Source of the DNA: a virus
Strand: one strand, 5' to 3'
DNA length: 64,000 nucleotides
Virus record (IMG/VR): IMGVR_UViG_3300025030_000086
Span: 1-64,000 of that record
In this document: in pieces, positions 5,673-42,105 of the stretch
How the letters are laid out: each line of letters starts with the position of its first letter
Numbering within the stretch: position 1 is the stretch's first letter
The notes under the pieces: model-generated
Database searches by the model: none
Told to the model about the DNA's origin: nothing
The model's input: only the letters and a program-made list of their open reading frames with translations
Translations under genes and position numbers: made by a program

Positions 5673-5861
5673 TTACTCATCTCCTTTAAAGTAATTGTTA
5701 GTATCTTTGTTTAATCCTATATTAATAATTACACCTTTATCAAATACAGAAAAATTCTTACATTTCCTACACTTAACTTCTATCACAGAAGTAATATCCG
5801 TTTTACAAAACAAAGTATTACATTTTGGGCAACGATAGTCTATTATTTTAGTATCTTCCAT
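5673..5861 (-). CDS. Mu Com-like zinc-finger protein
   Basis: RCPKCNTLF...IEVKCRKC. Confidence 0.7.
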   Translation of the reverse strand: MEDTKIIDYRCPKCNTLFCKTDITSVIEVKCRKCKNFSVFDKGVIINIGLNKDTNNYFKGDE

Positions 5862-5863
5862 AT

Positions 5864-6547
5864 TTATCTCTTCTTAATATTAAACATATTCTCTATTTGA
5901 TTTTCAACAAGGTCGTTGCTCTCACTTATTAAATAAGATATAGCTTCCTTCCTAATTTGGGCTTCCTCTCTATTAGTAAAATCAATTTCTGTGTCTTTTT
6001 CAGTTTCTTTCATTAAAATTGTTTGTCCCAATTTGTTTAAAAAGAATACTATATAGAATATTCTCATATTTTCTTTCTCCATAATAGACATTCTCTGTTT
6101 AGCATTTTCAATATTTCTTAACTCTGTTTCTCTAATATATTCTTCTATGCTTAGAACGTCTTTAATATTGAACACAAGTTCGGGTGCTTCGGGTGCGTAA
6201 GGAGATATTTCAATAGGCCCCCCTTTTTTACCTTTAAATGGGATAATAAAAAGAAAAGGTGCATATTTTTTTATCCATTCCTCTTTTGGTCTTTCCCAAT
6301 CTACTTTTGGGATTTTCTCTGCGTCAGAAGTTATAAATCCCCAAGTACATTTGCAATTCGGATGTAGGGGTTGTTGGTAAATAGAATAATCAGGGTCAGT
6401 TGCATCCATAACTTTACCATCTAATGAAGCACATAAAGGACATATATTAGGTTCATGTGTTTTCCATACAAATCTGGTGATTTTTGGGCTTAAAATATCA
6501 GCCAATTTTATATTTTGTAATCTTTCTAAAGATAAAATATTTTTCAT
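5864..6547 (-). CDS. Head morphogenesis (MuF-like) C-terminal domain protein
   Basis: CPLCASLDGK...PLHPNCKC; ATG overlaps HNH TGA (ATGA). Confidence 0.75.
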   Translation of the reverse strand: MKNILSLERLQNIKLADILSPKITRFVWKTHEPNICPLCASLDGKVMDATDPDYSIYQQPLHPNCKCTWGFITSDAEKIPKVDWERPKEEWIKKYAPFLFIIPFKGKKGGPIEISPYAPEAPELVFNIKDVLSIEEYIRETELRNIENAKQRMSIMEKENMRIFYIVFFLNKLGQTILMKETEKDTEIDFTNREEAQIRKEAISYLISESNDLVENQIENMFNIKKR

Positions 6548-7335: not shown

Positions 7336-9383
7336 TATATATTTTCTTGGGCTATTTTAGCTCTACCTTTATTTAAGAATAGCATAGATTCTGAGCTTAC
7401 AATGTCTACTAAATTTTTATTCTTTATAGTCTCAAATTGAGATTTAATGTCATTTATAGTATCTTCAGAAGTTTTATTTTCATTAGTAAATGAGGTAAGG
7501 ACAAGTTCTACCCTATATTTTACATTATTAAAAAATTGATCCGTAAGAATTCTACTTCTGTCTTTTATTGAAGATTTGCCTTCTTTATCCACAACAGAAG
7601 CCTCCTCTATTTTAAGTTCCTCTAAAGCTGTCTCCTGTCCAAAAAGGTAACTTTCTTGCATTAATTTAGAAATAGTAGATAACACTTTTGACCTTAAAGG
7701 TTGCCACAAAAGAATATTTTCATTCTCTCCATCTGAAACTTTGGAATAAAATAAGTCTTCAATAGATAATTTATCCGATAATATTTTCTTAACTTTAGTT
7801 AAAATTTGTTCCCCCTGTTTATCAAAAATATTAACTAAATCAGCATAATAATTTTTTTCTAAACTATTCATTTTAGATTCAATTTCAGACAAGGAAGCAT
7901 TTTCCGTCAGATTTACGTCAGAAAATTTCTTTCCTTCGTCTTTTTTGACAACCTTATCCTTTTTATTGTCAATCTCATTATCCTTATTGTCAACCTTAAT
8001 TGAATTGTCAAGTTTTCCTTTACTGTTGTCTCTATTCCTTAATTGATCAGCTACAGTGGTTTCTTGCTCATCTGTGAGAGGTACGCCAACAACATCGGCG
8101 ATTTCTCTTGCAGCAGGAATAGCTGTTCCTTTTTTAATCATTTCCATAAATACATCTTTAAGAAATCCTTTTCTTGCCTCTGTGATACGCTCAATCTTTA
8201 TATAGCATTGTGGTGCTTTAGCACCAAAATTGTATTCAATTAAACGTCTAACAACATATTTATTTAATTGATTCTCAATATCTACTAATAGAGCTTCCTC
8301 ACCTAAAAGGAACATATCGGCGTGAGTTTGAGATAATGAATAAGAACCTGCCTTAGAAGAAGAGTCTTGCGTAATTGTCCTCTCAGGAACAAACATACCA
8401 CGCAACATCTTATTTTCAAAAAAAGTGAGAGCGGAAAGAAACATCTCCCCACGTTTATCATCTAATAAATAGTTTAAATCCCATTTGGGTGGGGTGTTTT
8501 CATATGTAGTAGAAGGTATTGCTATAACAGATTCACCAATAAGAGCTTTACCCATCTCCAATGCTATATCGGCGTGGTCAGTCCCATCCTTAGTTTGTCC
8601 AAGTGGGAATTTTACAATAACAGGTGGTGTCCCCTTGCGTTCAAAATACCTCATCATAAACTGAACTAATGAAATCCACCAATACCAACAATCGTAGGCA
8701 GGTTTTAATCTACTAACACCAAACAAATTACCAAAACTATCGCCTTTATCATGTGTAAAAATAAAGGATTTTTCAACAGGAATATGAATATCTTGCCCTA
8801 CCCACTTTTGAACAATCCCATCAAAGTTTTCCATCTCATCAAGTTTTATATTAACTGTATCTGGGTATAAGGATTTGAATTTTTTCCATACAACAGCTTT
8901 TTTGTCAAAGAAAGATTTTTTCTCATACTTGCGATTAAGAGTTGTATCTTGTACATCATAAACAATCTCATGTGCAGCAAATCCAAAGTCTACAGCAGTA
9001 AGTGTGGAAGTCAATAAGTTGTACCACATAGGTCTTAGTAATTGGTCAATAAATTCACCAATATCTTTATCATCACAAACAGTTGTCCATTGCTGACCAA
9101 TTATAGGTAGTTTTATAACCTTTAACCCAGCGGCTATTTGGGCGTTCATCCGTAGTTTATTATATGTATCTACCGAAATATCGTCTGGATTATATTGGCC
9201 CGCATAGGATTGAATAGCACCTGCTATTTGAGATAAAGGCCCACCATGCTTGGATAATTCACCTTTTTCTACTTTTTTAGAAATAGAATTGGTGAAATCC
9301 TCCAGCAACTTTGCATCTTTTTCAAAGATTTTCTGTACTTGCTTTAGATTTGGTGATTTTTTTAAAGACTTAGTTTTTGGCAT
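7335..9383 (-). CDS. Portal protein (DUF935/Mu gp29-like) with C-terminal MuF-N-like extension
   Basis: FGFAAHEIVY, GVSRLKPAY, ERKGTP, GSYSLSQTH, LIEYNFG motifs. Confidence 0.85.
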   Translation of the reverse strand: MPKTKSLKKSPNLKQVQKIFEKDAKLLEDFTNSISKKVEKGELSKHGGPLSQIAGAIQSYAGQYNPDDISVDTYNKLRMNAQIAAGLKVIKLPIIGQQWTTVCDDKDIGEFIDQLLRPMWYNLLTSTLTAVDFGFAAHEIVYDVQDTTLNRKYEKKSFFDKKAVVWKKFKSLYPDTVNIKLDEMENFDGIVQKWVGQDIHIPVEKSFIFTHDKGDSFGNLFGVSRLKPAYDCWYWWISLVQFMMRYFERKGTPPVIVKFPLGQTKDGTDHADIALEMGKALIGESVIAIPSTTYENTPPKWDLNYLLDDKRGEMFLSALTFFENKMLRGMFVPERTITQDSSSKAGSYSLSQTHADMFLLGEEALLVDIENQLNKYVVRRLIEYNFGAKAPQCYIKIERITEARKGFLKDVFMEMIKKGTAIPAAREIADVVGVPLTDEQETTVADQLRNRDNSKGKLDNSIKVDNKDNEIDNKKDKVVKKDEGKKFSDVNLTENASLSEIESKMNSLEKNYYADLVNIFDKQGEQILTKVKKILSDKLSIEDLFYSKVSDGENENILLWQPLRSKVLSTISKLMQESYLFGQETALEELKIEEASVVDKEGKSSIKDRSRILTDQFFNNVKYRVELVLTSFTNENKTSEDTINDIKSQFETIKNKNLVDIVSSESMLFLNKGRAKIAQENI

Positions 9384-11010: not shown

Positions 11011-11085
11011 TGGTTCACAGAATAGGGATCGAACCTATAACCTTTGATCCAAAGTCAAATATTTTACCAATTAAACTATCTGTGA
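11011..11085 (-). tRNA. tRNA-Gln(TTG)
   Basis: Cloverleaf TCACAGA...TCTGTGA-ACCA, anticodon arm TTTGA-CTTTGGA-TCAAA, GGTTCGATCC T-arm, encoded CCA. Confidence 0.9.
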
Positions 11086-11220: not shown

Positions 11221-11790
11221 ATGATATTAATTAAAAAATTAGGCACTCGGTTAGATAAAAATGGTAAAAAACAAAGTTGGGCTATATTTAAATGTCCTAA
11301 ATGTCTACAGGAAGTTGTGAGATTATTGGGGAGTGGGGATAGTCAAAAATCCTGTGGGTGTTATACAAATGTAAAGCATAAAGGAAGTTATACAAGATTA
11401 TATAATACTTGGGCTATGATGAAACAAAGATGTTTAAATCCAAATGTAAAACAATTTAAAAATTATGGTGGTAGAGGTATAACTATATGCAATGAATGGT
11501 CAAATTTCACCCCTTTCAGGGATTGGTCACTAAATAATGGATATGCAGATAATCTACAAATAAACAGAATAAATAATGATGGTAATTATGAACCAAGTAA
11601 TTGTGAGTGGATTTCTCATAAAGAAAATGCAAGACATAGAAGAGGACAGAAAATAAATATGGAAAAAGCTAATGAAATTAGGGCTTTGTGGAATACAGGA
11701 AATTACACACAGAAAGAATTAGCTGAAAAGTATAATGTAAATAGAATAACAATTTCTAAAATAATAAATAATAAAACATGGAAAAATTAA
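11221..11790 (+). CDS. HNH-type homing endonuclease with C-terminal HTH
   Basis: KSCGC, YGGRGITICNEW, RINNDGNYEPSNC, TQKELAEKYNV. Confidence 0.85.
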   Translation: MILIKKLGTRLDKNGKKQSWAIFKCPKCLQEVVRLLGSGDSQKSCGCYTNVKHKGSYTRLYNTWAMMKQRCLNPNVKQFKNYGGRGITICNEWSNFTPFRDWSLNNGYADNLQINRINNDGNYEPSNCEWISHKENARHRRGQKINMEKANEIRALWNTGNYTQKELAEKYNVNRITISKIINNKTWKN

Positions 11791-13371: not shown

Positions 13372-13829
13372 TGAAGTTAATGAAAGACTTAGGTATAAGG
13401 TTAATTAAAGGGCATTGGTTTAGGTATGCTATATTTAAATGCTCTGAATGTTTACAAGAAGTTGAAAGACAAACAAGTGCAGGAAAAATAACAAAATCTT
13501 GTGGTTGTGTTAGATACTCAGAAAATAAAAAGAATTATAAACATGGGTTTTCAAAAACAAAATTATATATGATTTGGAATAATATGAAACAAAGAGTTTT
13601 AAATCCTAAAAGAGATAATTATAAATATTACGGTGGAAGAGGAATAACAATATGTCCAGAATGGACAGATAAGTTAAATGGATTCATTACTTTTAGAGAT
13701 TGGGCACTAAGTAATGAGTATGCAGACAACTTAGTTATTGATAGAATAAATCCAGATGGTAATTATGAGCCATCTAATTGTAGATTTTTAACTATTGAGG
13801 AAAGCAATAGAAATAAGAGAAAGAATTAA
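13371..13829 (+). CDS. HNH-type homing endonuclease (no HTH)
   Basis: KSCGC, YGGRGITICPEW, IDRINPDGNYEPSNC. Confidence 0.85.
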   Translation: MKLMKDLGIRLIKGHWFRYAIFKCSECLQEVERQTSAGKITKSCGCVRYSENKKNYKHGFSKTKLYMIWNNMKQRVLNPKRDNYKYYGGRGITICPEWTDKLNGFITFRDWALSNEYADNLVIDRINPDGNYEPSNCRFLTIEESNRNKRKN

Positions 13830-14347: not shown

Positions 14348-15034
14348 ATGGGAGAAAAAGAAAAAATGGATGAAGAAGAGTTTATTAATAAATTTCCTGA
14401 AGAAGAACAAACTGAAATTAGAAAAGATTTAGAAAATCTTGCAGAGGAAAATGAAAAACTTATAGAAGAATTTACAGAAGACACTGATACTACAGATAAA
14501 AAGGTTGTTGGAAGACCCCCTGGTATTCCGGCTTCATCTGCACAGAAAGAAGCAGTAAGCAAAGCTGCAAAGAAATATCAACAAGACCTAAGAGATGGTT
14601 TAATTGAGAAACCTGCGTGGGAAACTCATGGTGCATATAGTTATATGAGTGGTGGTAGAGTTCCTAAAAAGAAAAGATATTTACTTGACTTTGTTCATAA
14701 GGAAAGAGAGAAATGGTTAGATGAATTAGGTGGGGAAGACAATCTTACCTCAATAGAAATAGCAATGCTTGATGAAGCAAGCCGTTTGTTGCTGTTTTCA
14801 ACAATGGTAAATGATTACCTTTTATCTGATAAAGATACAGATGTTGTATATAAAGATAGTGAAGGTGATATTAAAATGCACACTGGGTTATCTCGTCACT
14901 ATTTATCCTTCACCAAAACATATATACAAATTTTAAAAGAATTACAAAAAATTGCTACAACAAAAACAAAGAAAAAGGGTGGTTCAAAAAAAGACAGTGC
15001 AAGTATTTTGCAAAAGTTATATAAGGAAAATTAG
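14348..15034 (+). CDS. Putative terminase small subunit
   Basis: GRPPG...ETHGAYS resembles the KHGxYS motif of TerS proteins; helical C-terminus; near terL. Confidence 0.45.
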   Translation: MGEKEKMDEEEFINKFPEEEQTEIRKDLENLAEENEKLIEEFTEDTDTTDKKVVGRPPGIPASSAQKEAVSKAAKKYQQDLRDGLIEKPAWETHGAYSYMSGGRVPKKKRYLLDFVHKEREKWLDELGGEDNLTSIEIAMLDEASRLLLFSTMVNDYLLSDKDTDVVYKDSEGDIKMHTGLSRHYLSFTKTYIQILKELQKIATTKTKKKGGSKKDSASILQKLYKEN

Positions 15035-15036
15035 AA

Positions 15037-15321
15037 ATGTTTGATAGAGAAAATTTTCAAACAATTACAAAATTACATTTGGAGAGGTACAAAATTTTGA
15101 AAGAAGCCAAACAGTATGAAGAATGTATCAAAGAGCTTGAGCAGATAATAACTCTTATGAGCGAAGCCATAGTAACAATTTTTGGAAAATCCAAGGTAAA
15201 TTACACAAAACCAAATCTCATTTTATCAGAAGGTATTAAAAATATTACATTAGATGATGTTTTAAATCCCCATAATACAATAACTATTGATGCTGAAGGC
15301 AATCTAAAAATAAGGAAATAA
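15037..15321 (+). CDS. Hypothetical protein
   Basis: ORF in operon. Confidence 0.5.
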   Translation: MFDRENFQTITKLHLERYKILKEAKQYEECIKELEQIITLMSEAIVTIFGKSKVNYTKPNLILSEGIKNITLDDVLNPHNTITIDAEGNLKIRK

Positions 15322-15338
15322 GGAAATAAGGAAAATAT

Positions 15339-15956
15339 ATGAATATAGGATTTGATTTAGACGGGGTTTTGGCTAACTTTCATTATGGATTTTCTAAAAT
15401 AGCAAATGAATTATTTGGTTCTCCTATAGTTAAGGATATTAATGAAGTTAAAGCTTATAGGTGGGAGGACTGGGGTTATCCATTGGATAAGAAACAACAT
15501 AATAAAGTATGGAGAGAAATAGATTCAAATACTAATGATTTTTGGTTAGATTTACAACCATTGGTTGAAAATACTATTTTTGAAAGAATGAAAAAGATGG
15601 AAAAAGAAAACTGTAACTTTTTCTTTATTACTTCTCGTAAAAATACAGCAGGGAAAAGTGCATTATCACAGACAAAAGATTGGATAGAGAGTTGCACAGC
15701 TTTAAAGAATTTTTCCGTAATTCCTTCTCACAGGAAGGGTGGTATATTAGATAGAGCTGAAATAGATTATTTTATTGATGATTTACCAGAAAATGTAATT
15801 GAGGCTGCTATAGAAGCCCCGAAATGTAAATCTTTCCTTTTGGTTAGACCATACAATTCATATGCTCTTGAGTTTATTAAAAAATCTCATAAATTTAAAA
15901 ATATTGGGATAGTATATAGTGTAGGTGAGTTTTTAGACATCGTGGAACAACATTAA
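15339..15956 (+). CDS. HAD-family 5'(3')-deoxyribonucleotidase
   Basis: DLDGVL, ITSR, FIDD, RPYN. Confidence 0.85.
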   Translation: MNIGFDLDGVLANFHYGFSKIANELFGSPIVKDINEVKAYRWEDWGYPLDKKQHNKVWREIDSNTNDFWLDLQPLVENTIFERMKKMEKENCNFFFITSRKNTAGKSALSQTKDWIESCTALKNFSVIPSHRKGGILDRAEIDYFIDDLPENVIEAAIEAPKCKSFLLVRPYNSYALEFIKKSHKFKNIGIVYSVGEFLDIVEQH

Positions 15957-16074
15957 AAGTGGCTATTCAGAATAGGAGAAAAGCTATTGGTATTGATTTA
16001 GGTTATTCAGATATTCAGGATAGGAAATTACAAAATATACAAATAAAATTGCTTAAAATTGGAGGAGGATAGAA

Positions 16075-16779
16075 ATGACACATGATGGACATCATTACAG
16101 TCAGGATTGTAATTGTACTACTTGTTTTATGAATAGAGTAAAAACAACAAGAAAGTATGTTAATAAAGCTATGGCAGGAGAAAAAACAGATATAATTAAA
16201 ATGGAAACTATAGAAGGTACTAAACTTGAGGATGATGGGGAAGACGGGTGCTACATAGATTATGAAGATTTACATAAAAAGAGGTATAATAAATCAAATT
16301 CACCAGAAGAACCTGTATTAATTAAACATCCAACATATAATAATGGATTAGCATATGATAAACACTTAGAATTAAATTCACATATAAATGAGATAGACAA
16401 TAATTCAATTCCAATATATGTGAACAATGACCAAATTAGAAAGTTTGATAGTGGGGCAACACGAGACACTTCAGAAGGTAAAATAGATTTTGAAGGTTTT
16501 ATATCACCAATAGTTTTAGAAGAATTTGGAAAATATATGCTGAAGCATCAGAAACAATCAAATGGGGAATTGAGACCCTCCGACAATTGGCAGAAGGGGA
16601 TGCCGAGAGATGTTTATATGAAATCTGCTTGGAGACACTTTCATGACTGGTGGATGGAACATAGAGGATATGATTCAAGAGAGGGGATGAAGGATGCTTT
16701 AAACGGTCTACTATTCAATTTGATGGGCTACATGCATGAATTGCTTTTAGAAGAAAGGAAAAATAATGAATCTAAATAG
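16075..16779 (+). CDS. dATP/dGTP diphosphohydrolase (DUF5664-like)
   Basis: RKFDSGATRD...GK...NWQKGMP...SAWRH. Confidence 0.75.
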   Translation: MTHDGHHYSQDCNCTTCFMNRVKTTRKYVNKAMAGEKTDIIKMETIEGTKLEDDGEDGCYIDYEDLHKKRYNKSNSPEEPVLIKHPTYNNGLAYDKHLELNSHINEIDNNSIPIYVNNDQIRKFDSGATRDTSEGKIDFEGFISPIVLEEFGKYMLKHQKQSNGELRPSDNWQKGMPRDVYMKSAWRHFHDWWMEHRGYDSREGMKDALNGLLFNLMGYMHELLLEERKNNESK

Positions 16780-17518
16780 ACAACGATTAGAAGTAAAAAA
16801 AGGAAAAGAATATGCTGAATTGGTTTTTATAGGAGATGTTCACTATGGGTCTAAACAATGCAATGTTGAAAAGTTTGAAAAAATATTACAATATTGTTTA
16901 GAAAATGAGTTATATATATTTTGTATGGGTGATATGATAGAATCAAATTCAAGGCACTCTGTTGGAGCTGGTGTATATGAACAAATATCTCCACAGAAGC
17001 AAATAGAGGATATTTCAGAATATCTCAGACCATTGGCAGAAAAGAATCTTATTGTAGGTTATCTTACAGGAAATCATGAGTCCAGGGTGAATAAAGAATT
17101 GGGTATAGATATATCCAAAATTATTTGTAAAGAGTTAAAAATACCTTACTTAGGTTATGCAGGTTGGTCATTGTTCTATGTTGGCAATCAAAGTTATTCA
17201 CTTTATTCCACGCATGGAGCTTCTTCAGCTACATTAAAGCATACGAAATTAAAAGCCATACTTGATATAGCTAAATCTTTTGAAGCAGATATAGTTACTT
17301 GTGGACATGTGCATGATATAATTATAGATAGTGCAGAATATCAAAAAGTAAATAAGAAAAGAAAAATCGTAGATACAAGAAAATCCTATGTAATTGTCAC
17401 AGGGCATTATTATAACTATGGTGGATATGCTCAGGAAAAAGGTTATTCTTTGACAAAGATGGGTAGTCCCAAAGTAAAGCTTTTTGGAGACAAATTTGAC
17501 ATCCACGTTAGCGTTTAA
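16766..17518 (+). CDS. Calcineurin-like metallophosphoesterase
   Basis: GDVH, GD, GNHE, HG, GHVH. Confidence 0.85.
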   Translation: MNLNRQRLEVKKGKEYAELVFIGDVHYGSKQCNVEKFEKILQYCLENELYIFCMGDMIESNSRHSVGAGVYEQISPQKQIEDISEYLRPLAEKNLIVGYLTGNHESRVNKELGIDISKIICKELKIPYLGYAGWSLFYVGNQSYSLYSTHGASSATLKHTKLKAILDIAKSFEADIVTCGHVHDIIIDSAEYQKVNKKRKIVDTRKSYVIVTGHYYNYGGYAQEKGYSLTKMGSPKVKLFGDKFDIHVSV

Positions 17519-17519
17519 A

Positions 17520-18935
17520 ATGAATTATTTCCAAGATAAATTTTCAACTCTATATTTAGGTGATTGTTTGGAAGAATTAAAAAATATTGAGGATAATAGC
17601 ATTGATTCTATTGTTACTGATCCTCCTTATGGTTATTCCTTCATGGGAAAAGATTGGGATAAAGCCGTGCCCTCAATTAGTATTTGGAAAGAATGTTTAA
17701 GAGTTTTAAAACCCGGTTCTTTTGCTTTTATAATGTCTTCTCCAAGACAGGATATTTTATCAAGAATGATTATAAATTTGCAAGATGCTGGGTTTAGAAC
17801 AGATTTTACAAGTATCTATTGGGCCTATGCTTCTGGATTTCCTAAAGCTACAAATATAAGTAAAATTATAGATAAAAGATTGGGATGCGAAAGAGAAGTT
17901 ATAGAAAATAGGAAAGTAACAGAGAATATGTCAAAAATGAGTAAGAATAGTCCAAATAAAGATGGATATCCAAAACGACCAAGACCGAAAGACAATTATT
18001 GGACAGGAGAAATTTTAGATACTAAAGCTATAAGTGAGCAAGCTAAAGAATTTGATGGTTCTTATTCAGGATTCCAACCAAAACCAGCAGTAGAAATTAT
18101 TATTGTATGCATGAAACCTTTATCTGAAAAAACTTTTGTTGAGCAAGCATTGAATAATGGTAAGGGGATTACTTGGTTAGATAATTGCAGGATTCCTTAT
18201 GAAAATAATTGTAGATTAAACAAAGGTGATAGTTATAAAGGAAATAGGAATGGTAGTAATAAAAAGTCTTTTTATCAAAAAGGTAATGGTAATATAGATT
18301 ATAAATATGAATTACCGAATGGTAGATTTCCAGCTAATCTTTTAGTTTCTGATGATATATTAAATGACGGTATTGATAGAAAAGGTGTTTCCGGTGGAGG
18401 CCCTAAAGAGTATGGCGGTGGTGGCGGCTTTGATAATAATTTGAATAGGCAACCTGTAAAAAATTATTATAATGATTCTGGTTCTTTTAGTAGATATTTT
18501 GATATTGATAAATGGTTTGAAACTAAAATAAAAGAATTACCAATTAGTATACAAAAAGTTTTTCCTTTTTTAATAGAATCTAAAGCATCTAAATCTGAAA
18601 AGGTAAAAGGTTTAGAATTTGAAAAATACAAAATTGGTGGCGGTATAAATGGTACAGAAGATATGTCATTGAGGACAGGAAGTGGGAATGAAAGAAATAA
18701 TTTAAATAAGAACAATCACCCAACAGTTAAACCAATAAAATTAATGAGTTACTTAATAACTTTAGGAAGTAGAGAAAATGATATTATTCTTGACCCATTT
18801 ATGGGCAGTGGTTCTACAGGTATTGCTTCTAAATTATTGAATAGGAAATTTATTGGTATTGAAAAAGAAGAAGAATACATTGAAATTGCTTCAAAAAGAA
18901 TAGAAATTGTAAATAATCAACAAAAATTAATTTGA
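17520..18935 (+). CDS. DNA N4-cytosine/N6-adenine methyltransferase (beta class)
   Basis: VTDPPY, GRFPAN, HPTVKP, LDPFMGSGSTG. Confidence 0.92.
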   Translation: MNYFQDKFSTLYLGDCLEELKNIEDNSIDSIVTDPPYGYSFMGKDWDKAVPSISIWKECLRVLKPGSFAFIMSSPRQDILSRMIINLQDAGFRTDFTSIYWAYASGFPKATNISKIIDKRLGCEREVIENRKVTENMSKMSKNSPNKDGYPKRPRPKDNYWTGEILDTKAISEQAKEFDGSYSGFQPKPAVEIIIVCMKPLSEKTFVEQALNNGKGITWLDNCRIPYENNCRLNKGDSYKGNRNGSNKKSFYQKGNGNIDYKYELPNGRFPANLLVSDDILNDGIDRKGVSGGGPKEYGGGGGFDNNLNRQPVKNYYNDSGSFSRYFDIDKWFETKIKELPISIQKVFPFLIESKASKSEKVKGLEFEKYKIGGGINGTEDMSLRTGSGNERNNLNKNNHPTVKPIKLMSYLITLGSRENDIILDPFMGSGSTGIASKLLNRKFIGIEKEEEYIEIASKRIEIVNNQQKLI

Positions 18936-18955
18936 CATACACGTGAGTATTTAAT

Positions 18956-19867
18956 ATGAAAGTAGGATTAATAGATGTGGATTCCAAAATTCCAAATATT
19001 GCTTTGATGAAGCTATCCACATTTCATAAAGAAAGAGGAGATGCAGTAGAATTTTGGAAAGGTTCATTTTTTAATGATGAATATGATAAAATGTATGCTT
19101 CTAAAGTTTTTGATTTTTCTTCATTACCAAATGGGATGGACAAAAAGACAATTATTGGTGGAACGGGTTATGATTTAACTATTAAATTACCTGATGATAT
19201 TGAATATTTATGTCCTGATTATTCATTGTATCCTAATTGTGATTATTCTATAGGATTTATTACAAGAGGTTGCAGCAGGAATTGTTCATTTTGCAAAGTT
19301 CCTAAAAAAGAGGGTAAAATTAGATTTAATCAATCATGGGAAAATTTTAAAAATCCAAATGGAAAATATTGGGTATTCTTAGATAATAATATCCTTGCCT
19401 ATGAAAATCATTTAGATATTTTAAAAGAGATTAATGAAAGAAAAATGGTTATAGATTTTAACCAAGCAACAGATATAAGATTAGTTACAGAAGAAAATGC
19501 AAAAATATTGGCAACAATTAAATGGCATTCTTTTTACAGATTTTCTTTCGATTGGATATTTTTAGATAAACAGATTATTGAAAAGGTTAAGTTACTAAAC
19601 AATTTTGGGTTATCCTCTTATAAAATGTTTTGTTTCATTTTGATTGGTTACAACACAACTGTTGAGGAAGATTTATATAGAGTAGAATTATGTAGAGAAT
19701 TAAAAATAAATCCTTTTGTTATGCCATATAATAAATTTGATAAATACCAAAAAGACTTTTCCAGATGGGTTAATCATAAAGCTATTTTTAAATTTGTTGC
19801 TTGGGAGGATTATAAGAAAAAGAATTGGGAAATGGTTGATATGAATGGACAACAAAAATTAATTTGA
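18956..19867 (+). CDS. Phage radical SAM protein
   Basis: CxxxCxxC in TRGCSRNCSFC; PNIALMKLS, GGTGY, PDYSLY. Confidence 0.85.
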   Translation: MKVGLIDVDSKIPNIALMKLSTFHKERGDAVEFWKGSFFNDEYDKMYASKVFDFSSLPNGMDKKTIIGGTGYDLTIKLPDDIEYLCPDYSLYPNCDYSIGFITRGCSRNCSFCKVPKKEGKIRFNQSWENFKNPNGKYWVFLDNNILAYENHLDILKEINERKMVIDFNQATDIRLVTEENAKILATIKWHSFYRFSFDWIFLDKQIIEKVKLLNNFGLSSYKMFCFILIGYNTTVEEDLYRVELCRELKINPFVMPYNKFDKYQKDFSRWVNHKAIFKFVAWEDYKKKNWEMVDMNGQQKLI

Positions 19868-19891
19868 CATATTCATAGATTATGATAATAT
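19864..19891 (+). promoter_or_regulatory. sigma70-like promoter for tRNA-like RNA
   Basis: TTGACA-N16-TAATAT, overlapping the radical SAM stop codon. Confidence 0.45.
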
Positions 19892-19910
19892 TAAATTATA
19901 AGGAAAAAAT

Positions 19911-19981
19911 GCGGTCAAAGTTTCAAGAGAGAAACACTTTTACCCAAAGAGGGGAAGGGGCAGTACCTTCTGACCGCTTCA
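19911..19981 (+). tRNA. Non-canonical tRNA-Gly-like RNA
   Basis: GCGGTCA/TGACCGC acceptor, T discriminator, GTTTC/GAAAC D-stem, CTTT-TACCCAA-AGAG, GAAGG-GGCAGTA-CCTTC; lacks T8, D-loop GG, T33, TTC and CCA. Confidence 0.6.
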
Positions 19982-20278
19982 AATAATATGATAACAATAA
20001 CAGTTTTTTATTCAATAGCAGATGGAAAAATTGTAACAGAAAAGGATTTAGATGTTATTGATGCAGACATGAATTCTTTAATGCGGGAATGTGTCAATAA
20101 AGGATTTAAGGTAAATAATTATCAAGATAGAATTTTTCATTAAGGGGGACTAAAAATGTCAAGAATAAATAATGCATATGTAAAGGAAGTATTAACAATA
20201 ATTTTTGTTTTCTTTGTTTTCATCGTTGTTCCTATTTTTGTAATATTGACAGTAACTTAAAATATAGGAGAAATAAAG

Positions 20279-20488
20279 ATGTCAAAGGATAGTAATGTAA
20301 CTTATACAAGTTTTCCAATAGCTTCAGTATTAGCAATAGTTTTTGTTGTACTAAAATTAACAAATAATATCTCTTGGTCATGGTGGTGGGTGTTATCCCC
20401 ACTATGGATACCTTTAGGTCTTATAGCTGTACTATTTGTTATTATATTTATTTTTTTGTTTGTAAAAACTTTGTTGGGGAGAACATGA
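20279..20488 (+). CDS. Small membrane protein (W-rich LSPLWI family)
   Basis: SWSWWWVLSPLWI; paralogs at 54060 and 58381. Confidence 0.7.
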   Translation: MSKDSNVTYTSFPIASVLAIVFVVLKLTNNISWSWWWVLSPLWIPLGLIAVLFVIIFIFLFVKTLLGRT

Positions 20489-20712
20489 GTAGGATGTATA
20501 CAAAATTATCTTGTGGATGTATGGTATCCTGTGAAGGTGCTGGTAGGCTTTTAGGTACATGTCATAGGGATAATTGTCAATTTGCTATTTGGGTTCAGAA
20601 ACACAGACAATGCCAGATATGTAATGAATGTTTGTTATGTAGTAATCATGATGGACATTCTGAAAAGTTGGATGGTTTAGATTATTTAAAATCTATTTTG
20701 GGGATAAAGTAA
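20485..20712 (+). CDS. Hypothetical Cys-rich protein
   Basis: MSRMYTKLSCGC... after GGGGAG SD. Confidence 0.45.
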   Translation: MSRMYTKLSCGCMVSCEGAGRLLGTCHRDNCQFAIWVQKHRQCQICNECLLCSNHDGHSEKLDGLDYLKSILGIK

Positions 20713-20895
20713 TGAATTCGCCAAATATTGCTCATGTAGCACTTAATAGAAGAGGGGCTTTGGAATTAGGGCAATCACCTTGTAATGTATGTGGCTGTGG
20801 TTATGCTTCATATTCTATAAATAAATCTGAATCTTGTCAAGATATTTGTGAAGAATTTAAAGAATATGTAAGTATATTGATAGAAAGATCTAAGA

Positions 20896-21171
20896 ATGAG
20901 CAAAATTAAATGTCTCAATTGTGATATGATATTAGAATCTATTTATATGCATGATTTTCGTAGTTGTGATTGTGAAAATAGAACTTATATTGATGGTGGT
21001 GATAAATATATGAGATTTGGGTGTATGGATATAACTAAAGTATTGTTTTGGAATGAAAAAATGGGAAAGTTTTTGCCATATACTACAATAGTTAAAGAAG
21101 AAAGTATTGAGGAGCAAAAGGAGGGAGTAGTATGTTCAGAAAATTGTGGCAAACATTGTTCACAAAAGTAA
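20896..21171 (+). CDS. Phage Zn-binding hypothetical protein
   Basis: KCLNCDMILES..HDFRSCDC...IDGG. Confidence 0.6.
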   Translation: MSKIKCLNCDMILESIYMHDFRSCDCENRTYIDGGDKYMRFGCMDITKVLFWNEKMGKFLPYTTIVKEESIEEQKEGVVCSENCGKHCSQK

Positions 21172-21247
21172 AATATAATACTTTAAATTCTTTTCAATTT
21201 TCCTTAATATGTAATATCAAATCTGGTAATATTAGGAGGATTGTTTA

Positions 21248-21874
21248 ATGAAATTAATTGACCAAACATTTGAAATACTTACACCTATTGATAGTGATAA
21301 AATTTTAAGGAATCTTGAAAAAATAGGAAGGATCAGTTATAAAAGTGAAAATTTAATAACTGAAGATAGTGCTAAAAAGTTTATTAAAAAGATAATAGAA
21401 AACAAACATGAAGCTGTTATAGAACATGAGAATATTTCTATCAAAGTTATAACAGATAGGGGGGTTAGTCATGAGATTGTCAGACATCGCATAGCGTCTT
21501 ATATACAAGAAAGTACAAGATTTTGTAATTACAGCAAAGAGAAATTTGGAAATGAAATAGTTTATATAAAACCAGTAGATTTTGAATTATTGAAAAAAGA
21601 TATAAAATTATTACAAACCATAGAACAACACTATTTAGAACGATTGAAAGATGGATTAACACCACAGCAAGCAAGATATTTTTTACCCAATGGACTTAAA
21701 ACAGAAATTGTCATTACAATGAATTTGAGAGAATGGAGACATTTTTTTAAACTTAGAACTGCCAAAGCAGCACATCCTCAAATGAGATATATGGCAAAAA
21801 ATATTTTATGCAAATTGAATGAATTAGTAATGGTGATTTTTGAGGATTTGGGGGATTTGCATGAAATATCTTAA
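21248..21874 (+). CDS. thyX: Flavin-dependent thymidylate synthase
   Basis: SHEIVRHRIASYIQESTR, ARYFLP, NLREWRHFFKLR, AHPQMR. Confidence 0.95.
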   Translation: MKLIDQTFEILTPIDSDKILRNLEKIGRISYKSENLITEDSAKKFIKKIIENKHEAVIEHENISIKVITDRGVSHEIVRHRIASYIQESTRFCNYSKEKFGNEIVYIKPVDFELLKKDIKLLQTIEQHYLERLKDGLTPQQARYFLPNGLKTEIVITMNLREWRHFFKLRTAKAAHPQMRYMAKNILCKLNELVMVIFEDLGDLHEIS

Positions 21875-21876
21875 AT

Positions 21877-22005
21877 TTGATAAAAATTTTAGAACTGAAA
21901 GACAATGGAAATTACACACAACAACAATTAGCTGGAATATTTGAAATAAAGCAACAAATGATTTCTTTTATTATAAATAATAAAAGTTGGAAAGGGATTA
22001 AATAA
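21877..22005 (+). pseudogene. C-terminal HTH remnant of the HNH family
   Basis: GNYTQQQLAGIFEIKQQMISFIINNKSWK; stop overlaps the ligase ATG. Confidence 0.65.
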
Positions 22006-23111
22006 TGTCAATTCTTAAAATAGAAATTTGTAGAATAGAAAAGGTAGAAAATCATCCCAACGCTGATAGACTTGAAATAATTCAAGTTAAGGGTTGGAAT
22101 TGTGTAGTTTCTAAAGGTTCATTTTTAGAAGGAGATTTATGTCTCTTTTTTCCAATAGACAGTATATTACCAGAAGAATTGGAAAAAAGAATATTTGGAG
22201 AAGACTCTAAAGTTAAATTGAATAAACATAGAGTTCGTACTATAAAATTGAGGGGAATAATATCTCAGGGGTTGGTTATTAAACCCGAAGTGGCTGATAT
22301 ATTTGGTGCAAAAGAAGGTCAGGATTTTATATCACAACTTGGGATAATAAAGTATGAACCCCCAGAAGAATTACCAAGTGTTTATGGGACTTGCAATAAG
22401 ATTAAAAAAAGATATATTAATAGTAATTTCCATAAATATACATGTATAGAAAATATAAAGAACCATCCAAAGGTATTTGAGGATGGGGAAAGTGTGTATA
22501 TAAGTGAAAAATTGCACGGGAGCAGTTTTAGATCGGGATGGGTAAAGAATGAAGCAAATACTATATGGAAAAAGATTAAGAAATTATTTGGTTTATTACC
22601 AACACATGAATTTATTGTAGGGTCACGCAATGTTCAATTATCTTATAGAAATAAGAATAAATACTTTTATGATAATAATGTATATGCGAGAATAGCAGAA
22701 AAGTATGATTTAAAAAATAAGTTAAAATTGGGCGAAGTAATTTATGGTGAAATCGTAGGAGATGGTATTCAACATGGATATGGTTATGGATGCAGACCAA
22801 ATGAAACAGACTTTTATGCCTATGACCTCATGGTAAATGATAAATGGTTAAATGTTGTGGATTTTATAGATAGTTGTAAAATAAAAAGAATATCAACAGT
22901 ACCTTTTCTGTACATAGGCCCATATAGTAAACAAATTGTGGATACATTTACAATAGGGGCATCTTTGCTATGCCCAACAGGACAGCCAATCAGAGAGGGC
23001 TGTGTGATTAAACCACTTGAGGAAAAGAATAATCCTTATGTTGGTAGAAAAGTTTTAAAATCTATAAATTCAGAGTATCTTTTGTTAAAAAATAACTCAG
23101 ATTTCCATTAA
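22005..23111 (+). CDS. RNA ligase (DRB0094-like) with N-terminal tRNA-binding-like domain
   Basis: HPNADRLE, LRGIISQGL, EKLHGS, YGEIVG, REGCVIK. Confidence 0.85.
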   Translation: MSILKIEICRIEKVENHPNADRLEIIQVKGWNCVVSKGSFLEGDLCLFFPIDSILPEELEKRIFGEDSKVKLNKHRVRTIKLRGIISQGLVIKPEVADIFGAKEGQDFISQLGIIKYEPPEELPSVYGTCNKIKKRYINSNFHKYTCIENIKNHPKVFEDGESVYISEKLHGSSFRSGWVKNEANTIWKKIKKLFGLLPTHEFIVGSRNVQLSYRNKNKYFYDNNVYARIAEKYDLKNKLKLGEVIYGEIVGDGIQHGYGYGCRPNETDFYAYDLMVNDKWLNVVDFIDSCKIKRISTVPFLYIGPYSKQIVDTFTIGASLLCPTGQPIREGCVIKPLEEKNNPYVGRKVLKSINSEYLLLKNNSDFH

Positions 23112-29145: not shown

Positions 29146-29339
29146 TGGCTGATTATTATTTAGATACGATGGATTATGGAGATGAAGAGAACTACCCCTA
29201 TCCTTATAAAATGGATAGGGGGCCTGGGAAATGTCCCATATGTGGTGATTTTACATTTAAAAGAAAGGGGAAATTTGGTTCTTTTTATGGCTGTAGTAAA
29301 TATCCTATATGCAAAGGGAGTAGATGTTTTGATGAATAA
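29145..29339 (+). CDS. Topoisomerase C4 zinc-finger-like protein
   Basis: CPICG...GKFGSFYGCSKYPIC. Confidence 0.7.
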   Translation: MADYYLDTMDYGDEENYPYPYKMDRGPGKCPICGDFTFKRKGKFGSFYGCSKYPICKGSRCFDE

Positions 29340-34686: not shown

Positions 34687-34729
34687 AAAATAAGGGGTTG
34701 ATCCTATAGGGTTAATCCCTTATTTTTTT
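34687..34729 (+). terminator. Intrinsic terminator closing the early block
   Basis: TAAGGGGTTGATCC-TATA-GGGTTAATCCCTTA followed by T7. Confidence 0.75.
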
Positions 34730-34735
34730 ATATTA

Positions 34736-42081: not shown

Positions 42082-42105
42082 CAATTAATTAAAGGGGTTT
42101 CAATA

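What the first reader, a model, noticed from the sequence alone, without database searches (positions are those of the whole stretch)
19911..19981. Non-canonical tRNA-Gly-like RNA with its own promoter, directly after the methyltransferase and radical SAM genes
Seen: four intact stems and the Gly acceptor identity (GCG/CGC, U73, CC in the anticodon loop), but U8, D-loop GG, U33, TTC and CCA are all missing. Known: staphylococcal non-proteinogenic tRNA-Gly species lose similar ribosome-facing features, and, as I recall, Mu Mom-type adenine modification has been linked to Gly-tRNA. A Com-like gene is in the window but no Mom gene is visible. Inference: a dedicated glycyl donor for DNA hypermodification, or a decoy for anticodon nucleases.
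Basis: partly seen in the sequence, partly recalled or inferred. Interest (0 to 1): 0.75.

Follow-up and report, generated by a model that had tools for sequence, protein, structure and literature searches.

The report
Mom-linked tRNA-Gly-like phage RNA
A small cloverleaf RNA in this phage belongs to an undescribed family that looks like glycine tRNA, is missed by tRNA finders, and in other phages travels with Mom, the enzyme that uses glycyl-tRNA to modify DNA.

Summary
Window 19911-19978 folds into a tRNA-shaped four-way junction (z -4.1). It lacks U8, GG, TTC and CCA. ARAGORN and Rfam call it nothing. It is not a decaying one-off. I found about 20 diverged relatives in viral metagenome contigs. 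The cloverleaf is kept by compensatory changes in 17 of 23 pairs. All 21 aligned copies keep the bacterial GlyRS determinants: G1:C72, C2:G71, purine4:pyrimidine69, U73 and CC in the anticodon-like loop. In a scan blind to Mom, 18 of 18 viral records with the RNA also encode a Pfam Mom protein, usually adjacent and on the same strand. None of 8 control records does. Mom was recently shown to use Gly-tRNAGly as donor (PMC13219725). The most likely function is a private, non-ribosomal glycyl carrier for Mom; this is inferred, not shown. In this window the copy is an orphan. It is an 89-nt insertion polymorphism in an operon leader, and no mom gene lies in the 73-kb, 51%-complete record. A sister strain has mom directly upstream. 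I found no description in print in three literature searches.

The parts
19864..19891 (+). Sigma-70-like promoter (TTGACA, 16 nt, TAATAT, with TG). It is shared with the downstream operon and is kept in relatives without the element.
   Evidence: 10 of 12 matches; conserved in L001, L022, L023, L025-L031; precedes mom in L028.
19897..19985 (+). 89-nt segment that is present or absent among close relatives (an insertion/deletion polymorphism). It carries a 14-nt leader, the RNA and a short tail.
   Evidence: Alignment gap against L001. Contigs with and without it coexist in runs X1 and X3: a joint 19896->19988 has AC between. It is absent in L022, L023, L026, L027 and L030.
19911..19978 (+). 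tRNA-Gly-like cloverleaf RNA, from G1 to discriminator U73.
   Evidence: Fold. Model R1 scores 99.1 bits. Covariation.
19911..19917 (+). Acceptor-like stem, 5' strand (G1 C2 G3 G4 ...). It pairs with 19971-19977.
   Evidence: 5 of 7 pairs show double-sided changes; G1:C72 and C2:G71 are invariant in 21 of 21.
19920..19935 (+). D-like arm: 5-bp stem and 6-nt loop AAGAGA, preceded by A8 A9 (19918-19919).
   Evidence: the loop is AAGAGA in 19 of 21 rows; 2 of 5 pairs covary.
19937..19949 (+). Anticodon-like arm. In this clade it is shortened to CUUU/AAAG with loop UACCC. Other members have a 5-7 bp stem with loop NNNCCAN.
   Evidence: CC is present in all 21 rows; the triplet is ACC in 11 rows, UCC in 6, and ACC/CCC in the 4 rows of the window clade.
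19950..19953 (+). Variable region AGGG.
   Evidence: AGGG, AGAG, AAGG, AAAG; variant 19952 G>A in run X7.
19954..19970 (+). T-like arm: 5-bp stem and 7-nt loop GGCAGUA, with GGC where tRNAs have TTC.
   Evidence: 4 of 5 pairs covary; the loop starts GGC in 17 rows and TGC in 4, of 21.
19971..19981 (+). Acceptor 3' strand, U73, then UCA. Sister copies read CCA.
   Evidence: 19979 T>C is seen in all four runs laid.
19909..19986 (+). 25-codon reading frame with AAGGA 5 nt upstream and a stop 1 nt before the next ATG. It overlaps the RNA and is not conserved in the family.
   Evidence: TGA falls at codon 11 in L035, L036 and L105 (read from the sequences). The start is TTG with no spacing in L024. 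L033 carries an in-frame fusion.
19988..20143 (+). 51-aa gene of unknown function. It is the anchor of the locus, and it is leaderless in relatives that lack the element.
17484..19867 (+). Upstream DNA methylase (17484-18935) and radical-SAM-like gene (18956-19867). These are alternative cassettes at a slot that holds mom in sister strain L028.

Best explanation
Window 19911-19978 is a structurally intact member of a previously undescribed family of phage RNAs. The family has the shape of a tRNA and the nucleotides that bacterial glycyl-tRNA synthetase reads, but it lacks the features used by tRNA finders and probably by EF-Tu and the ribosome. The family is genetically tied to Mom, the GNAT enzyme that moves glycine from Gly-tRNAGly onto adenine N6 in DNA.

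Most likely mechanism (inferred):
1. The RNA is transcribed with mom or from a nearby promoter.
2. It is cut out like a tRNA. U at -1 and G1 suit RNase P, and the 3' side is U73-C-N-A or CCA.
3. It is given or keeps CCA, and the host GlyRS charges it with glycine.
4. It serves as a private glycyl carrier for Mom, sparing the translational tRNAGly pool. Staphylococcal non-proteogenic tRNAGly does the same for Fem transferases.

In this window the copy sits alone. It lies 20 nt after a promoter, in the leader of a small-gene operon, as an 89-nt insertion polymorphism. No mom gene is present in the 73 kb held. Its partner may lie in the missing half of the genome, or the copy may be what is left of a mom-RNA cassette like that of sister strain L028.
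For: Shown, structure:
- The fold has z -4.1.
- RNAalifold, on an independent alignment of 17 members, predicts the same cloverleaf; 17 of 23 pairs are kept through double changes.
- On 21 rows, 96.5% of cells pair and 129 cells show double changes; 0 of 500 shuffles reach this, and slid controls give at most 39 cells.
- G-U pairs fit only the + strand, which is the mom strand.

Shown, glycine identity:
- G1:C72 in 21 of 21, C2:G71 in 21 of 21, purine4:pyrimidine69 in 21 of 21, U73 in 21 of 21, CC in the loop in 21 of 21, and G3:C70 in 19 of 21.
- The first five are the determinants given for bacterial GlyRS in PMC10464925 (abstract and passages). That paper also reports that loop sequences and U55/G18 changes do not impair glycylation.
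- Position 34 varies (A, U, C) while CC stays.

Shown, link to Mom:
- Neighbours are Pfam PF25680 Mom: L035 7.5e-34, L037 1.4e-17, L028 1e-38, L044 1.1e-37, L105 3.9e-33.
- A Mom-blind degenerate-pattern scan gave 26 viral loci. 18 are true members by model R1 (plus the three known loci L035, L036, L037).
- All 18 records hold Mom. In 12 it is adjacent on the same strand. In 6 it lies 5-50 kb away.
- None of the 8 pattern-positive, model-negative records holds Mom.
- The RNA lies 5' of mom, 3' of mom, on both sides (L044), in tandem and unlinked (G004), or in ORF-free stretches with promoter-like boxes. This fits a trans-acting product.
- Sister strain L028 has the order same promoter, mom, 33 nt, RNA, same 51-aa gene. 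Its Mom is 32% identical to Mu Mom.

Established knowledge:
- Mu Mom uses Gly-tRNAGly and rejects Gly-tRNAAla (PMC13219725).
- Staphylococcal non-proteogenic tRNAGly have TGC/TGT instead of TTC in the T loop, bind EF-Tu weakly, and are read by FmhB through their D and T arms (PMC7826273). This family has GGC or TGC at that place.
Against: - No expression, processing, charging or Mom assay exists, and no RNA run was listed.
- This record has no Mom. PF25680 and two Mom queries found nothing at E<=10, and a local HMM's best hit over 148 ORFs was E 0.52.
- The two places where relatives carry mom are empty here.
- A close relative, G006, has mom but not the RNA.
- Only 4 of the 80 Mom loci examined have the RNA within 2.5 kb, and none of 10 cultured Mom-encoding phages has it. 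Mom clearly works without it.
- In several loci the mom reading frame runs through the RNA. It forms the C-terminal ~26 codons in L037, L118, L125, L130 and L133. It forms an N-terminal extension, with no ATG in between, in L035, L036 and L105. Excising the RNA there would cut the mom message.
- Most members encode CAA or CTA rather than CCA.
- This clade's anticodon-like arm is shortened to a 5-nt loop, and the window copy has U where the other 20 rows have C74.
- Within the window clade, variation is too small to prove selection: 2-4 changes in 68 nt.
Confidence: 0.55

Rival explanations
1. Cis-acting tRNA-Gly mimic. The structure stays in the mom (or neighbouring) message and controls it. 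For example, Mom or GlyRS could bind its tRNA-like fold and so limit translation of a toxic enzyme. Alternatively, the fold could hide or expose a start or stop codon.
For: - In L035, L036 and L105 no ATG lies between the element and the conserved Mom N-terminus. Element-less homologs start M(S)IK..KV about 10 codons before it.
- A TTG in the anticodon-like stem, with the purine-rich D loop 6 nt upstream, could serve as the start.
- In L037, L118, L125, L130 and L133 the mom frame ends at the conserved UCAAUAA/UCAAUGA just after the element.
- In L071 and L037 the next gene's ATG begins at position 76.
- Mu mom is known to be under translational control by Com (abstract of PMC6483171, listing).
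Against: - The same RNA occurs 5' of mom, 3' of mom, on both sides of mom, in tandem, 5-50 kb from any mom in ORF-free stretches, and without mom.
- Conservation covers both ends of the L shape: the acceptor determinants, and CC in the distal loop. A synthetase needs both ends. The authors of PMC13219725 think Mom reads mainly the acceptor end.
- L028 mom has its own stop 33 nt before the element.
Confidence: 0.2
2. In this particular genome the RNA is a functionless leftover. A mom-RNA cassette like that of L028 lost mom when DNA-modification cassettes were swapped at this hot spot, and the RNA hitch-hikes in the leader.
For: - No Mom in 73 kb.
- Both known mom slots are empty.
- The segment is present or absent within one population.
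- U74 departs from the C found in the other 20 rows.
- One variant (L033) has deleted half of it.
Against: - All four stems are intact, and it has the second-highest R1 score in the alignment run (99.1 bits; L025 scores 99.9).
- Pair 7:66 goes A-U, G-U, G-C among clade members.
- Mom-less contexts with the RNA recur behind two different upstream cassettes (window; L025/L029).
- The record is only 51% complete, and in larger phages the RNA lies 8-50 kb from mom.
Confidence: 0.15
3. It is simply an odd decoding tRNA-Gly that supplements translation, with an unusual elbow.
For: - Most members can draw a 7-nt loop with U33 and A37 around ACC or UCC.
- Cultured phage f2b1 carries two similarly non-canonical cloverleaves inside a normal tRNA cluster.
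Against: - Positions 32 and 38 form covarying Watson-Crick pairs in 15 of 21 rows (A-U, C-G, U-A). This closes the loop to 5 or 3 nt.
- A34 is the commonest choice and G34 is never seen.
- The window clade has a 5-nt loop.
- There is no U8, GG or TTC.
- No tRNA genes lie nearby in 15 member loci.
- The link to Mom would be unexplained.
Confidence: 0.05
4. It is a decoy or substitute that protects against host anticodon nucleases or other tRNA-directed defences.
For: - An RNA ligase (22005-23111) and a metallophosphatase lie in the same region.
- Phage tRNA-like decoys are a known idea; this is recalled, not searched.
Against: The family's constant partner is Mom, not RNA-repair genes. The distal loop varies at position 34 and in size, which is odd for a nuclease bait.
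Confidence: 0.03
5. The functional unit is the 25-codon mini-gene 19909-19986, and the fold is incidental.
For: - AAGGA lies 5 nt before the ATG, and the stop lies 1 nt before the next ATG.
- L031 differs from the window by 4 synonymous changes and 1 non-synonymous change in this frame.
- L033 fuses the frame in phase to the 51-aa gene.
Against: - The frame is closed by TGA at codon 11 in L035, L036 and L105.
- The start is TTG with 0-1 nt spacing in L024/L028 and in a run X7 variant.
- Homology with L028 begins 1 nt before G1, not at the ribosome site.
- Stems change by paired substitutions that alter the peptide.
- It uses CGG and CGC codons and is 48% GC in a 29% GC genome.
Confidence: 0.02

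Closest known systems
Staphylococcal non-proteogenic tRNAGly (NP1-NP3), glycine donors for the Fem transferases FmhB/FemA/FemB (PMC7826273)
   Same: - Glycine-specific tRNA bodies kept for a tRNA-dependent GNAT-fold transferase outside translation.
- The T loop lacks TTC: TGC/TGT there, GGC/TGC here.
- The D and T arms are atypical.
- In the staphylococcal case they are charged by the ordinary GlyRS.
   Different: - Those are still recognisable tRNAs with a normal core, and they belong to a lineage found only in staphylococci (abstract).
- This family is phage-borne, lacks U8 and GG as well, and is invisible to ARAGORN and the Rfam tRNA model.
- Its partner acts on DNA, not on peptidoglycan precursors.
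- Charging and EF-Tu avoidance are not tested here.
Phage Mu Mom with host Gly-tRNAGly (PMC13219725)
   Same: The partner enzymes here are Pfam Mom family members. L028 Mom is 32% identical to Mu Mom. The chemistry needs a glycyl-tRNAGly-type donor.
   Different: Mu carries no RNA of its own and uses all three host isoacceptors. The paper's main text has no occurrence of 'tRNA-like', 'phage-encoded tRNA' or 'neighborhood'; its supplements were not seen.
Canonical tRNA (Rfam RF00005) and ordinary phage tRNA genes
   Same: Cloverleaf with a 7-bp acceptor, a 2-nt link, a 16-nt D arm, a 1-nt link, an anticodon arm, a 4-nt variable region, and a 5-bp T stem with a 7-nt loop stacked on the acceptor. 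The discriminator is followed by C-N-A.
   Different: A8 A9 stand in place of U8 R9, the D loop is AAGAGA, the T loop is GGCRGUN, and 32-38 are paired. There is no hit to RF00005 at E<=10 in the window or in 11 member loci.
tRNA-like operators in messenger RNAs (such as the thrS leader bound by ThrRS; recalled, not searched)
   Same: A tRNA mimic placed next to a start codon of a gene whose product handles that tRNA.
   Different: Those mimic one arm only and always sit in the leader. This one is a whole cloverleaf, and it is found on either side of mom or far from it.

Membership tests
Canonical tRNA (Rfam RF00005 / ARAGORN) | Scores above the family threshold with a tRNA covariance model or tRNA finder | tested here: not met
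   ARAGORN makes no call in the window or in any member locus. Rfam has no tRNA match at E<=10 or at E<=1.
Canonical tRNA (Rfam RF00005 / ARAGORN) | Cloverleaf with 7-bp acceptor, D, anticodon and T arms in tRNA spacing | tested here: met
Canonical tRNA (Rfam RF00005 / ARAGORN) | Core nucleotides U8, G18 G19, T54 T55 C56 (feature list recalled) | tested here: not met
   A8 A9 in 21 of 21 rows; D loop AAGAGA or GAAAAA; T loop GGC or TGC; no TTC in 21 rows.
Canonical tRNA (Rfam RF00005 / ARAGORN) | Open 7-nt anticodon loop with U33 | tested here: not met
   The window clade has a 5-nt loop UACCC. In 15 of 21 rows, positions 32 and 38 form covarying Watson-Crick pairs.
Bacterial tRNAGly identity set for alpha2beta2 GlyRS (PMC10464925) | G1:C72 and C2:G71 | tested here: met
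   21 of 21 rows, window included.
Bacterial tRNAGly identity set for alpha2beta2 GlyRS (PMC10464925) | U73 discriminator | tested here: met
   21 of 21 rows; window 19978.
Bacterial tRNAGly identity set for alpha2beta2 GlyRS (PMC10464925) | C35 C36 | tested here: met
   CC is in the distal loop in 21 of 21 rows. Numbering as 35-36 is clear in 17 rows and ambiguous in the 4 window-clade rows.
Bacterial tRNAGly identity set for alpha2beta2 GlyRS (PMC10464925) | Purine at 4 with pyrimidine at 69 | tested here: met
   G:C in 20 rows and A:U in 1, of 21.
Bacterial tRNAGly identity set for alpha2beta2 GlyRS (PMC10464925) | Actual glycylation by GlyRS | not testable with these tools
   Needs an aminoacylation assay.
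Staphylococcal non-proteogenic tRNAGly (PMC7826273) | T loop with TGC/TGT instead of TTC | tested here: inconclusive
   TGC in 4 rows and GGC in 17 (window GGC). This is the same kind of change, not the same sequence.
Staphylococcal non-proteogenic tRNAGly (PMC7826273) | Member of the staphylococcal tRNAGly lineage | tested here: not met
   All members are in viral or metagenome contigs of 29-37% GC from groundwater and other environments. They are not recognisable as tRNA at all.
Staphylococcal non-proteogenic tRNAGly (PMC7826273) | Weak binding to EF-Tu and ribosome | not testable with these tools
   Needs binding assays.
Mom-associated tRNAGly-like RNA (family defined here, model R1) | Matches the covariance model over its full length | tested here: met
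   Window 19905-19986 scores 99.1 bits, E 1.4e-26. Ordinary tRNAs, namely the window's tRNA-Gln and 12 tRNAs of phage f2b1, are not hit.
Mom-associated tRNAGly-like RNA (family defined here, model R1) | A Mom-family gene in the same genome | tested here: not met
   None in the 73-kb record. The record is 51% complete, so absence from the genome is not shown.
Any curated RNA family (Rfam 15) | Match at the gathering score | tested here: not met

The most novel reading that the evidence does not exclude
Some phages carry their own stripped-down glycine carrier RNA. It descends from tRNAGly and has shed everything the ribosome needs, but it kept what GlyRS reads. It co-travels with Mom as a two-part DNA hypermodification kit. 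This would be the first RNA cofactor dedicated to modifying DNA bases. In some lineages it is even written inside the mom reading frame, so that one stretch serves as both protein end and RNA.
Probability: 0.5. Interest if true: 0.88.

Novelty: new variant of a known kind. Interest (0 to 1): 0.8.

Why it matters
Mom's donor was only identified as Gly-tRNAGly in 2023-2026, and the authors assumed that phages scavenge the host pool. A conserved, Mom-linked, tRNAGly-shaped RNA that standard tools cannot see would have several consequences:
- Some phages would be bringing their own donor, which gives a direct handle on how Mom recognises tRNA.
- It would be a second natural case, after Staphylococcus, of a tRNA split off from translation for a transferase.
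- It would be a compact two-gene kit for writing N6-carbamoylmethyl-adenine into DNA.
- It shows that tRNA-like genes with a rebuilt elbow are being missed in phage annotation.

The idea can be tested directly with in-vitro assays that already exist.

Tried and rejected
**Searches that found nothing useful**
- Exact or gapped motif scans of viral contigs from the window sequence alone gave only chance hits: 14 loci and 2 loci.
- blastn of the region or of two family members against 50,697 phage records gave no match, or only short E>=3 hits.
- Sequencing runs: no RNA holder was listed, so nothing can be said on expression.

**Ideas rejected**
- MITE or repeat: there is a single copy in the genome and no target duplication at the 89-nt borders.
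- Known ribozyme or riboswitch: nothing in Rfam.
- The window's AAGGA-ATG as a remnant of mom's start region: L028's mom has a different, SD-less lead-in, and homology stops at 19900.

**Partners not found**
- A canonical tRNA-Gly beside mom: 0 of 60 Mom loci.
- A CCA-adding enzyme in the record: none.

**Cultured phages**
I scanned ten Mom-encoding records with R1: JeffCo, LP-026, A511, PSYJ-YH, Alsa_2, ASh-2020a, MT835576, f2b1, Vibrio 501E54-1 and Polaribacter P12002L. None has a glycine-type member. f2b1 gives two weaker, non-glycine hits.

**Other checks**
- A strict hand-written cloverleaf descriptor over all loci held at that point found the known members except L044 (which has a G7-A66 mismatch), plus 2 chance hits.
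- Of the 76 genome contigs pattern hits, 1 (L216) is a member.
Full report
**What is at the coordinates.**
Window 19911-19978 reads as a cloverleaf:
- a 7-bp closing stem (19911-19917 with 19971-19977);
- two unpaired A;
- a 5-bp stem with loop AAGAGA (19920-19935);
- one linker base;
- a short arm with loop UACCC (19937-19949);
- AGGG;
- a 5-bp stem with loop GGCAGUA (19954-19970) stacked on the closing stem;
- U (19978), followed by UCA.

The + strand folds at -26.0 kcal/mol with z -4.11, and 0 of 200 shuffles fold as well. The - strand is weaker, at z -3.35. Among 24,362 72-nt windows of the 73-kb genome, on both strands, it is the third most stable locus. It is also a GC island: 0.36-0.41 against 0.20-0.30 in the flanks.

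ARAGORN finds only a tRNA-Gln at 11011-11085. Rfam finds only that tRNA at gathering score, and nothing relevant at E<=10 in 19800-20100.

**Local anatomy.**
The RNA lies in an 89-nt segment (19897-19985). That segment is missing from a relative whose upstream radical-SAM protein is 93% identical (L001).

In that relative, and in four more metagenome contigs, the promoter-like TTGACA-16-TAATAT (window 19864-19891) is followed after 7-8 nt by the ATG of a conserved 51-aa gene. That gene is therefore apparently leaderless there.

Contigs with and without the segment coexist in the same groundwater runs (the joint 19896->19988 appears in X1 and X3, beside contigs that cover the element without a difference). 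So the promoter belongs to the operon, not to the RNA.

The segment also reads as a 25-codon frame (19909-19986), with AAGGA upstream and a stop 1 nt before the next ATG. I treated this as a serious rival.

**Relatives.**
A metagenome scan anchored on the 51-aa protein gave 12 loci, which sort as follows:
- five carry the RNA (L024, L025, L028, L029, L031);
- one carries a truncated copy (L033);
- five have the empty site;
- one has another ORF in the slot.

Within this clade, pair 7:66 goes A-U, G-U, G-C. All other changes fall in unpaired positions. Most copies read U-CCA after the stem, where the window reads U-UCA.

A scan of viral contigs with the invariant 18-mer of the D-like arm found three distant homologs: L035, L036 and L037. 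A model built from seven sequences (R1) and a degenerate pattern scan raised the family further. It now has about 20 loci in viral contigs, plus one 1.5-kb contig filed in a metagenome-assembled genome (L216).

**The structure is real.**
- On 21 rows aligned to the model, 96.5% of cells pair.
- 17 of 23 pairs change on both sides, in 129 cells.
- 0 of 500 shuffles reach this, and slid controls give at most 11 pairs and 39 cells.
- That alignment is fitted to the model, so I also ran RNAalifold on a plain MAFFT alignment of 17 members. It predicts the same four helices, again with 17 of 23 compensated pairs.
- G-U pairs occur only as read on the + strand.

The 25-codon frame is not conserved. 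TGA closes it at codon 11 in L035, L036 and L105. In L024/L028 the start is TTG with no spacing. Homology between the window and L028 begins one base before G1. The family is an RNA, not a peptide.

**Glycine identity.**
All 21 rows keep the following:
- G1:C72;
- C2:G71;
- a purine at 4 with a pyrimidine at 69;
- U73;
- CC followed by A or G in the distal loop.

G3:C70 holds in 19 of 21 rows.

PMC10464925 (abstract and passages read) names G1C72, C2G71, C35, C36 and U73 as the known determinants of bacterial GlyRS, and adds purine4/pyrimidine69. It also reports that loop sequences, including changes at U55 and G18, do not reduce glycylation, while the overall L shape is needed.

The base before CC is A in 11 rows and U in 6. 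In the 4 window-clade rows it is A or C, depending on register. It is never G. Every possible triplet is therefore a glycine anticodon, but the usage is unlike decoding tRNAs.

Positions 32 and 38 form covarying Watson-Crick pairs in 15 of 21 rows. This closes the loop to five or three bases.

Also invariant are U at -1, A8 A9 and A76. C74 is present in 20 of 21 rows; the window is the exception. The T loop begins GGC in 17 rows and TGC in 4. Staphylococcal non-proteogenic tRNAGly genes carry TGC/TGT at that place instead of TTC (PMC7826273, passages).

**Link to Mom.**
The genes beside the distant homologs are Pfam PF25680 Mom family:

| Locus | E-value |
|---|---|
| L035 | 7.5e-34 |
| L037 | 1.4e-17 |
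| L044 | 1.1e-37 |
| L105 | 3.9e-33 |
| L028 | 1e-38 |

L028 is the sister strain of the window phage. Its Mom is 32% identical to Mu Mom.

The degenerate pattern scan was blind to Mom. It returned 26 viral loci, of which 18 are members by R1:
- 12 have mom within 340 nt on the same strand. Of these, L118-L120, L125, L126, L128, L130, L133 and L136 were shown by tblastn, L035 and L037 by Pfam, and L036.
- One has mom 5.3 kb away (L131).
- Five have no mom in the locus, but 2-3 Mom genes elsewhere in the record, 8-50 kb away.

None of the 8 pattern-positive, model-negative records has Mom. By hand, Fisher's exact p is 1 in 1,562,275. If the 18 are collapsed to about 10 sequence lineages, it is still about 1 in 44,000.

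In the other direction, only 4 of the 80 Mom loci closest to L035 carry the RNA within 2.5 kb, and 0 of 60 carry a canonical tRNA-Gly.

The RNA lies 5' of mom (L035, L036, L105, L071), 3' of mom (L037, L028, L120, L216 and others), or on both sides (L044). In one record it stands as a tandem pair far from mom (G004). In the larger phages it sits in ORF-free stretches of 400 nt or more, with promoter-like boxes upstream.

**What is known about Mom.**
Silva et al. (PMC13219725; abstract, passages and discussion read) show the following:
- Mu Mom transfers glycine from Gly-tRNAGly to N6 of adenine in double-stranded DNA.
- All three E. coli isoacceptors work.
- Gly-tRNAAla does not.

The authors suggest that late expression limits the cost of drawing on the translation machinery.

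The terms 'tRNA-like', 'phage-encoded tRNA' and 'neighborhood' do not occur in the main text. Supplements were not available to me. Three literature searches found no description of a Mom-linked RNA. Papers outside the held library could still hold one.

**Most likely mechanism.**
Four things are shown: the fold, the identity nucleotides, the genetic link, and the strand.

The rest is inferred:
1. The RNA is released from the mom or operon transcript like a tRNA.
2. It ends in CCA, either encoded or added.
3. Host GlyRS charges it.
4. Mom uses it as a private glycyl donor that EF-Tu and the ribosome largely ignore.

This is the logic of the staphylococcal non-proteogenic tRNAGly, which bind EF-Tu weakly and are preferred by FmhB through their D and T arms (PMC7826273). 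I put this at about 0.55.

**Evidence that cuts the other way.**
- In L037, L118, L125, L130 and L133 the mom frame has no stop before the RNA. It runs through it for about 26 codons, to the conserved UCAAUAA/UCAAUGA.
- In L035, L036 and L105 there is no ATG between the RNA and the conserved Mom N-terminus, whereas element-less homologs start about 10 codons before it.
- In such loci, cutting out the RNA would behead or de-stop the mom message.

This keeps a cis-regulatory tRNA mimic alive as a rival, at about 0.2. The two could also coexist.

Against a purely cis role stand the unlinked, tandem and mom-less copies, and the conservation of both ends of the L shape.

**This window's copy.**
No Mom-family gene is in the 73-kb record:
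- the Pfam model and two Mom queries found nothing at E<=10;
- a local HMM of 27 Mom sequences against 148 open frames had a best E of 0.52.

The record is rated 51% complete.

Relatives carry mom at two places. In L028 it lies directly between the same promoter and the RNA. In G006 it lies between the homologs of window 15037-15917 and 16428-16595. Both places are empty here. G006, in turn, has mom but no RNA.

The slot before the 51-aa gene is a swap site for DNA-modification cassettes. It holds mom in L028, the methylase plus radical-SAM gene in the window, a Dam-type methylase in L025/L029, and an HTH-like ORF in L021/L032.

So the window copy is either served by a mom gene in the unseen half, or it is a leftover. 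It is intact and scores 99.1 bits, second only to L025's 99.9 bits in the alignment run. But it has U74, and clade-level variation is too small to prove selection: 2-4 differences in 68 nt, against 8-13 in the 156-nt gene next door.

**Side effect on the operon.**
This part is inference. With the segment present, the 51-aa gene is no longer leaderless and has no ribosome site of its own. It could be translated in two ways. One is by coupling to the 25-codon frame. The in-frame fusion in L033 and the 4:1 synonymous pattern in L031 hint that this frame is read in this clade. The other is from a near-leaderless message, if the RNA is cut off after U73.

**Verdict.**
- The 'decaying tRNA' reading is refuted at family level.
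- The family appears to be new.
- The concept, a glycine tRNA split off for a transferase, has one precedent.

Noticed in passing
window 17484-20143; L028, L025, L029, L021, L001: The stretch before the 51-aa gene is a swap site for DNA-modification genes. It holds mom in L028. It holds the N6_N4 methylase plus radical-SAM gene in the window, a Dam-type methylase in L025/L029, and an HTH-like ORF in L021/L032. A repeated CAAAAATTAATTTGACA promoter box sits at the joints.
   Followed up: partly
L037, L118, L125, L130, L133 (3' end of mom); L035, L036, L105 (5' end of mom): The mom reading frame runs through the tRNA-like RNA, as a C-terminal tail of about 26 codons or as an N-terminal extension with no ATG in between. 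The stop, or the next gene's ATG, sits in the conserved U73-C-A-A tail.
   Followed up: partly
L121 ~970-1470; L131 ~1400-1900; L132 ~6270-6509: In larger phages the RNA lies in long ORF-free stretches. Flanking segments are conserved and seem to covary: a hairpin 5' of it in L121/L132, and a long stem 3' of it in L121/L131. This may be a larger non-coding RNA locus. Rfam finds nothing there.
   Followed up: no
Phage f2b1, MN940411.1 136591-136676 and 137237-137332 (L238 1501-1586, 2147-2242): A cultured Bastille-type phage with a Mom homolog has two cloverleaves inside its tRNA cluster that ARAGORN skips and R1 hits weakly (40.1 and 35.6 bits). They have non-canonical T loops and are not glycine-like. 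One follows tRNA-Gly(UCC) directly and has A73-CCA and a GAA-type loop. The other has a long variable arm.
   Followed up: partly
G001-G005 (records of L121, L123, L135, L138, L132): Each of these 50-216-kb phage records holds two or three Mom-family genes. G004 holds two tandem copies of the RNA (33956-34042 and 34038-34124).
   Followed up: no
window 11274-11790, 13432-13793, 40583-40964, 42105-42531, 44276-44875; genome 66144-66579: Six diverged copies (67-77% identity to the relatives' copy) of one gene family are scattered in the genome. A copy lies next to mom in relative G006 and another at L025 1824-2255. They look like a spreading homing-type gene; I did not annotate them.
   Followed up: no
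window 1140-1217 (-), 29167-29262 (+), 34657-34758 (+), 8053-8142 (+): These are the other most stable 72-nt folds in the genome scan (-28 to -23.7 kcal/mol). 34657-34758 is a long AT-rich perfect hairpin.
   Followed up: no
L033 454-640: A deletion variant fuses the first 17 codons of the 25-codon frame, in phase, to residue 10 of the 51-aa protein, removing the 3' half of the RNA.
   Followed up: yes
window 14348-23111: The region around the RNA is rich in nucleotide and RNA-handling genes. By Pfam these include NT5C 5'-nucleotidase, a dATP/dGTP diphosphohydrolase N-domain match (just under cut-off), a metallophosphatase, ThyX, and an RNA ligase with an OB fold (22005-23111).
   Followed up: partly
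window 5760-5837 (-): The only Com-like signal is a 66-aa frame that matches Pfam Zn_ribbon_Com at 17.5 bits, under the 22.9 cut-off. That model also rings below cut-off in 11 of 14 control genomes (12 ring, 1 over the cut-off). The DUF7695 zinc-ribbon ORF at 20896-21171 is not called Com.
   Followed up: partly
L216 (genome contigs, 1505 nt): A mom-RNA cassette with Mom 70.6% identical to that of L028 sits on a short contig binned as a Woesearchaeota genome. Its U73 points to a bacterial-type GlyRS, so the contig may be a mis-binned phage fragment.
   Followed up: no
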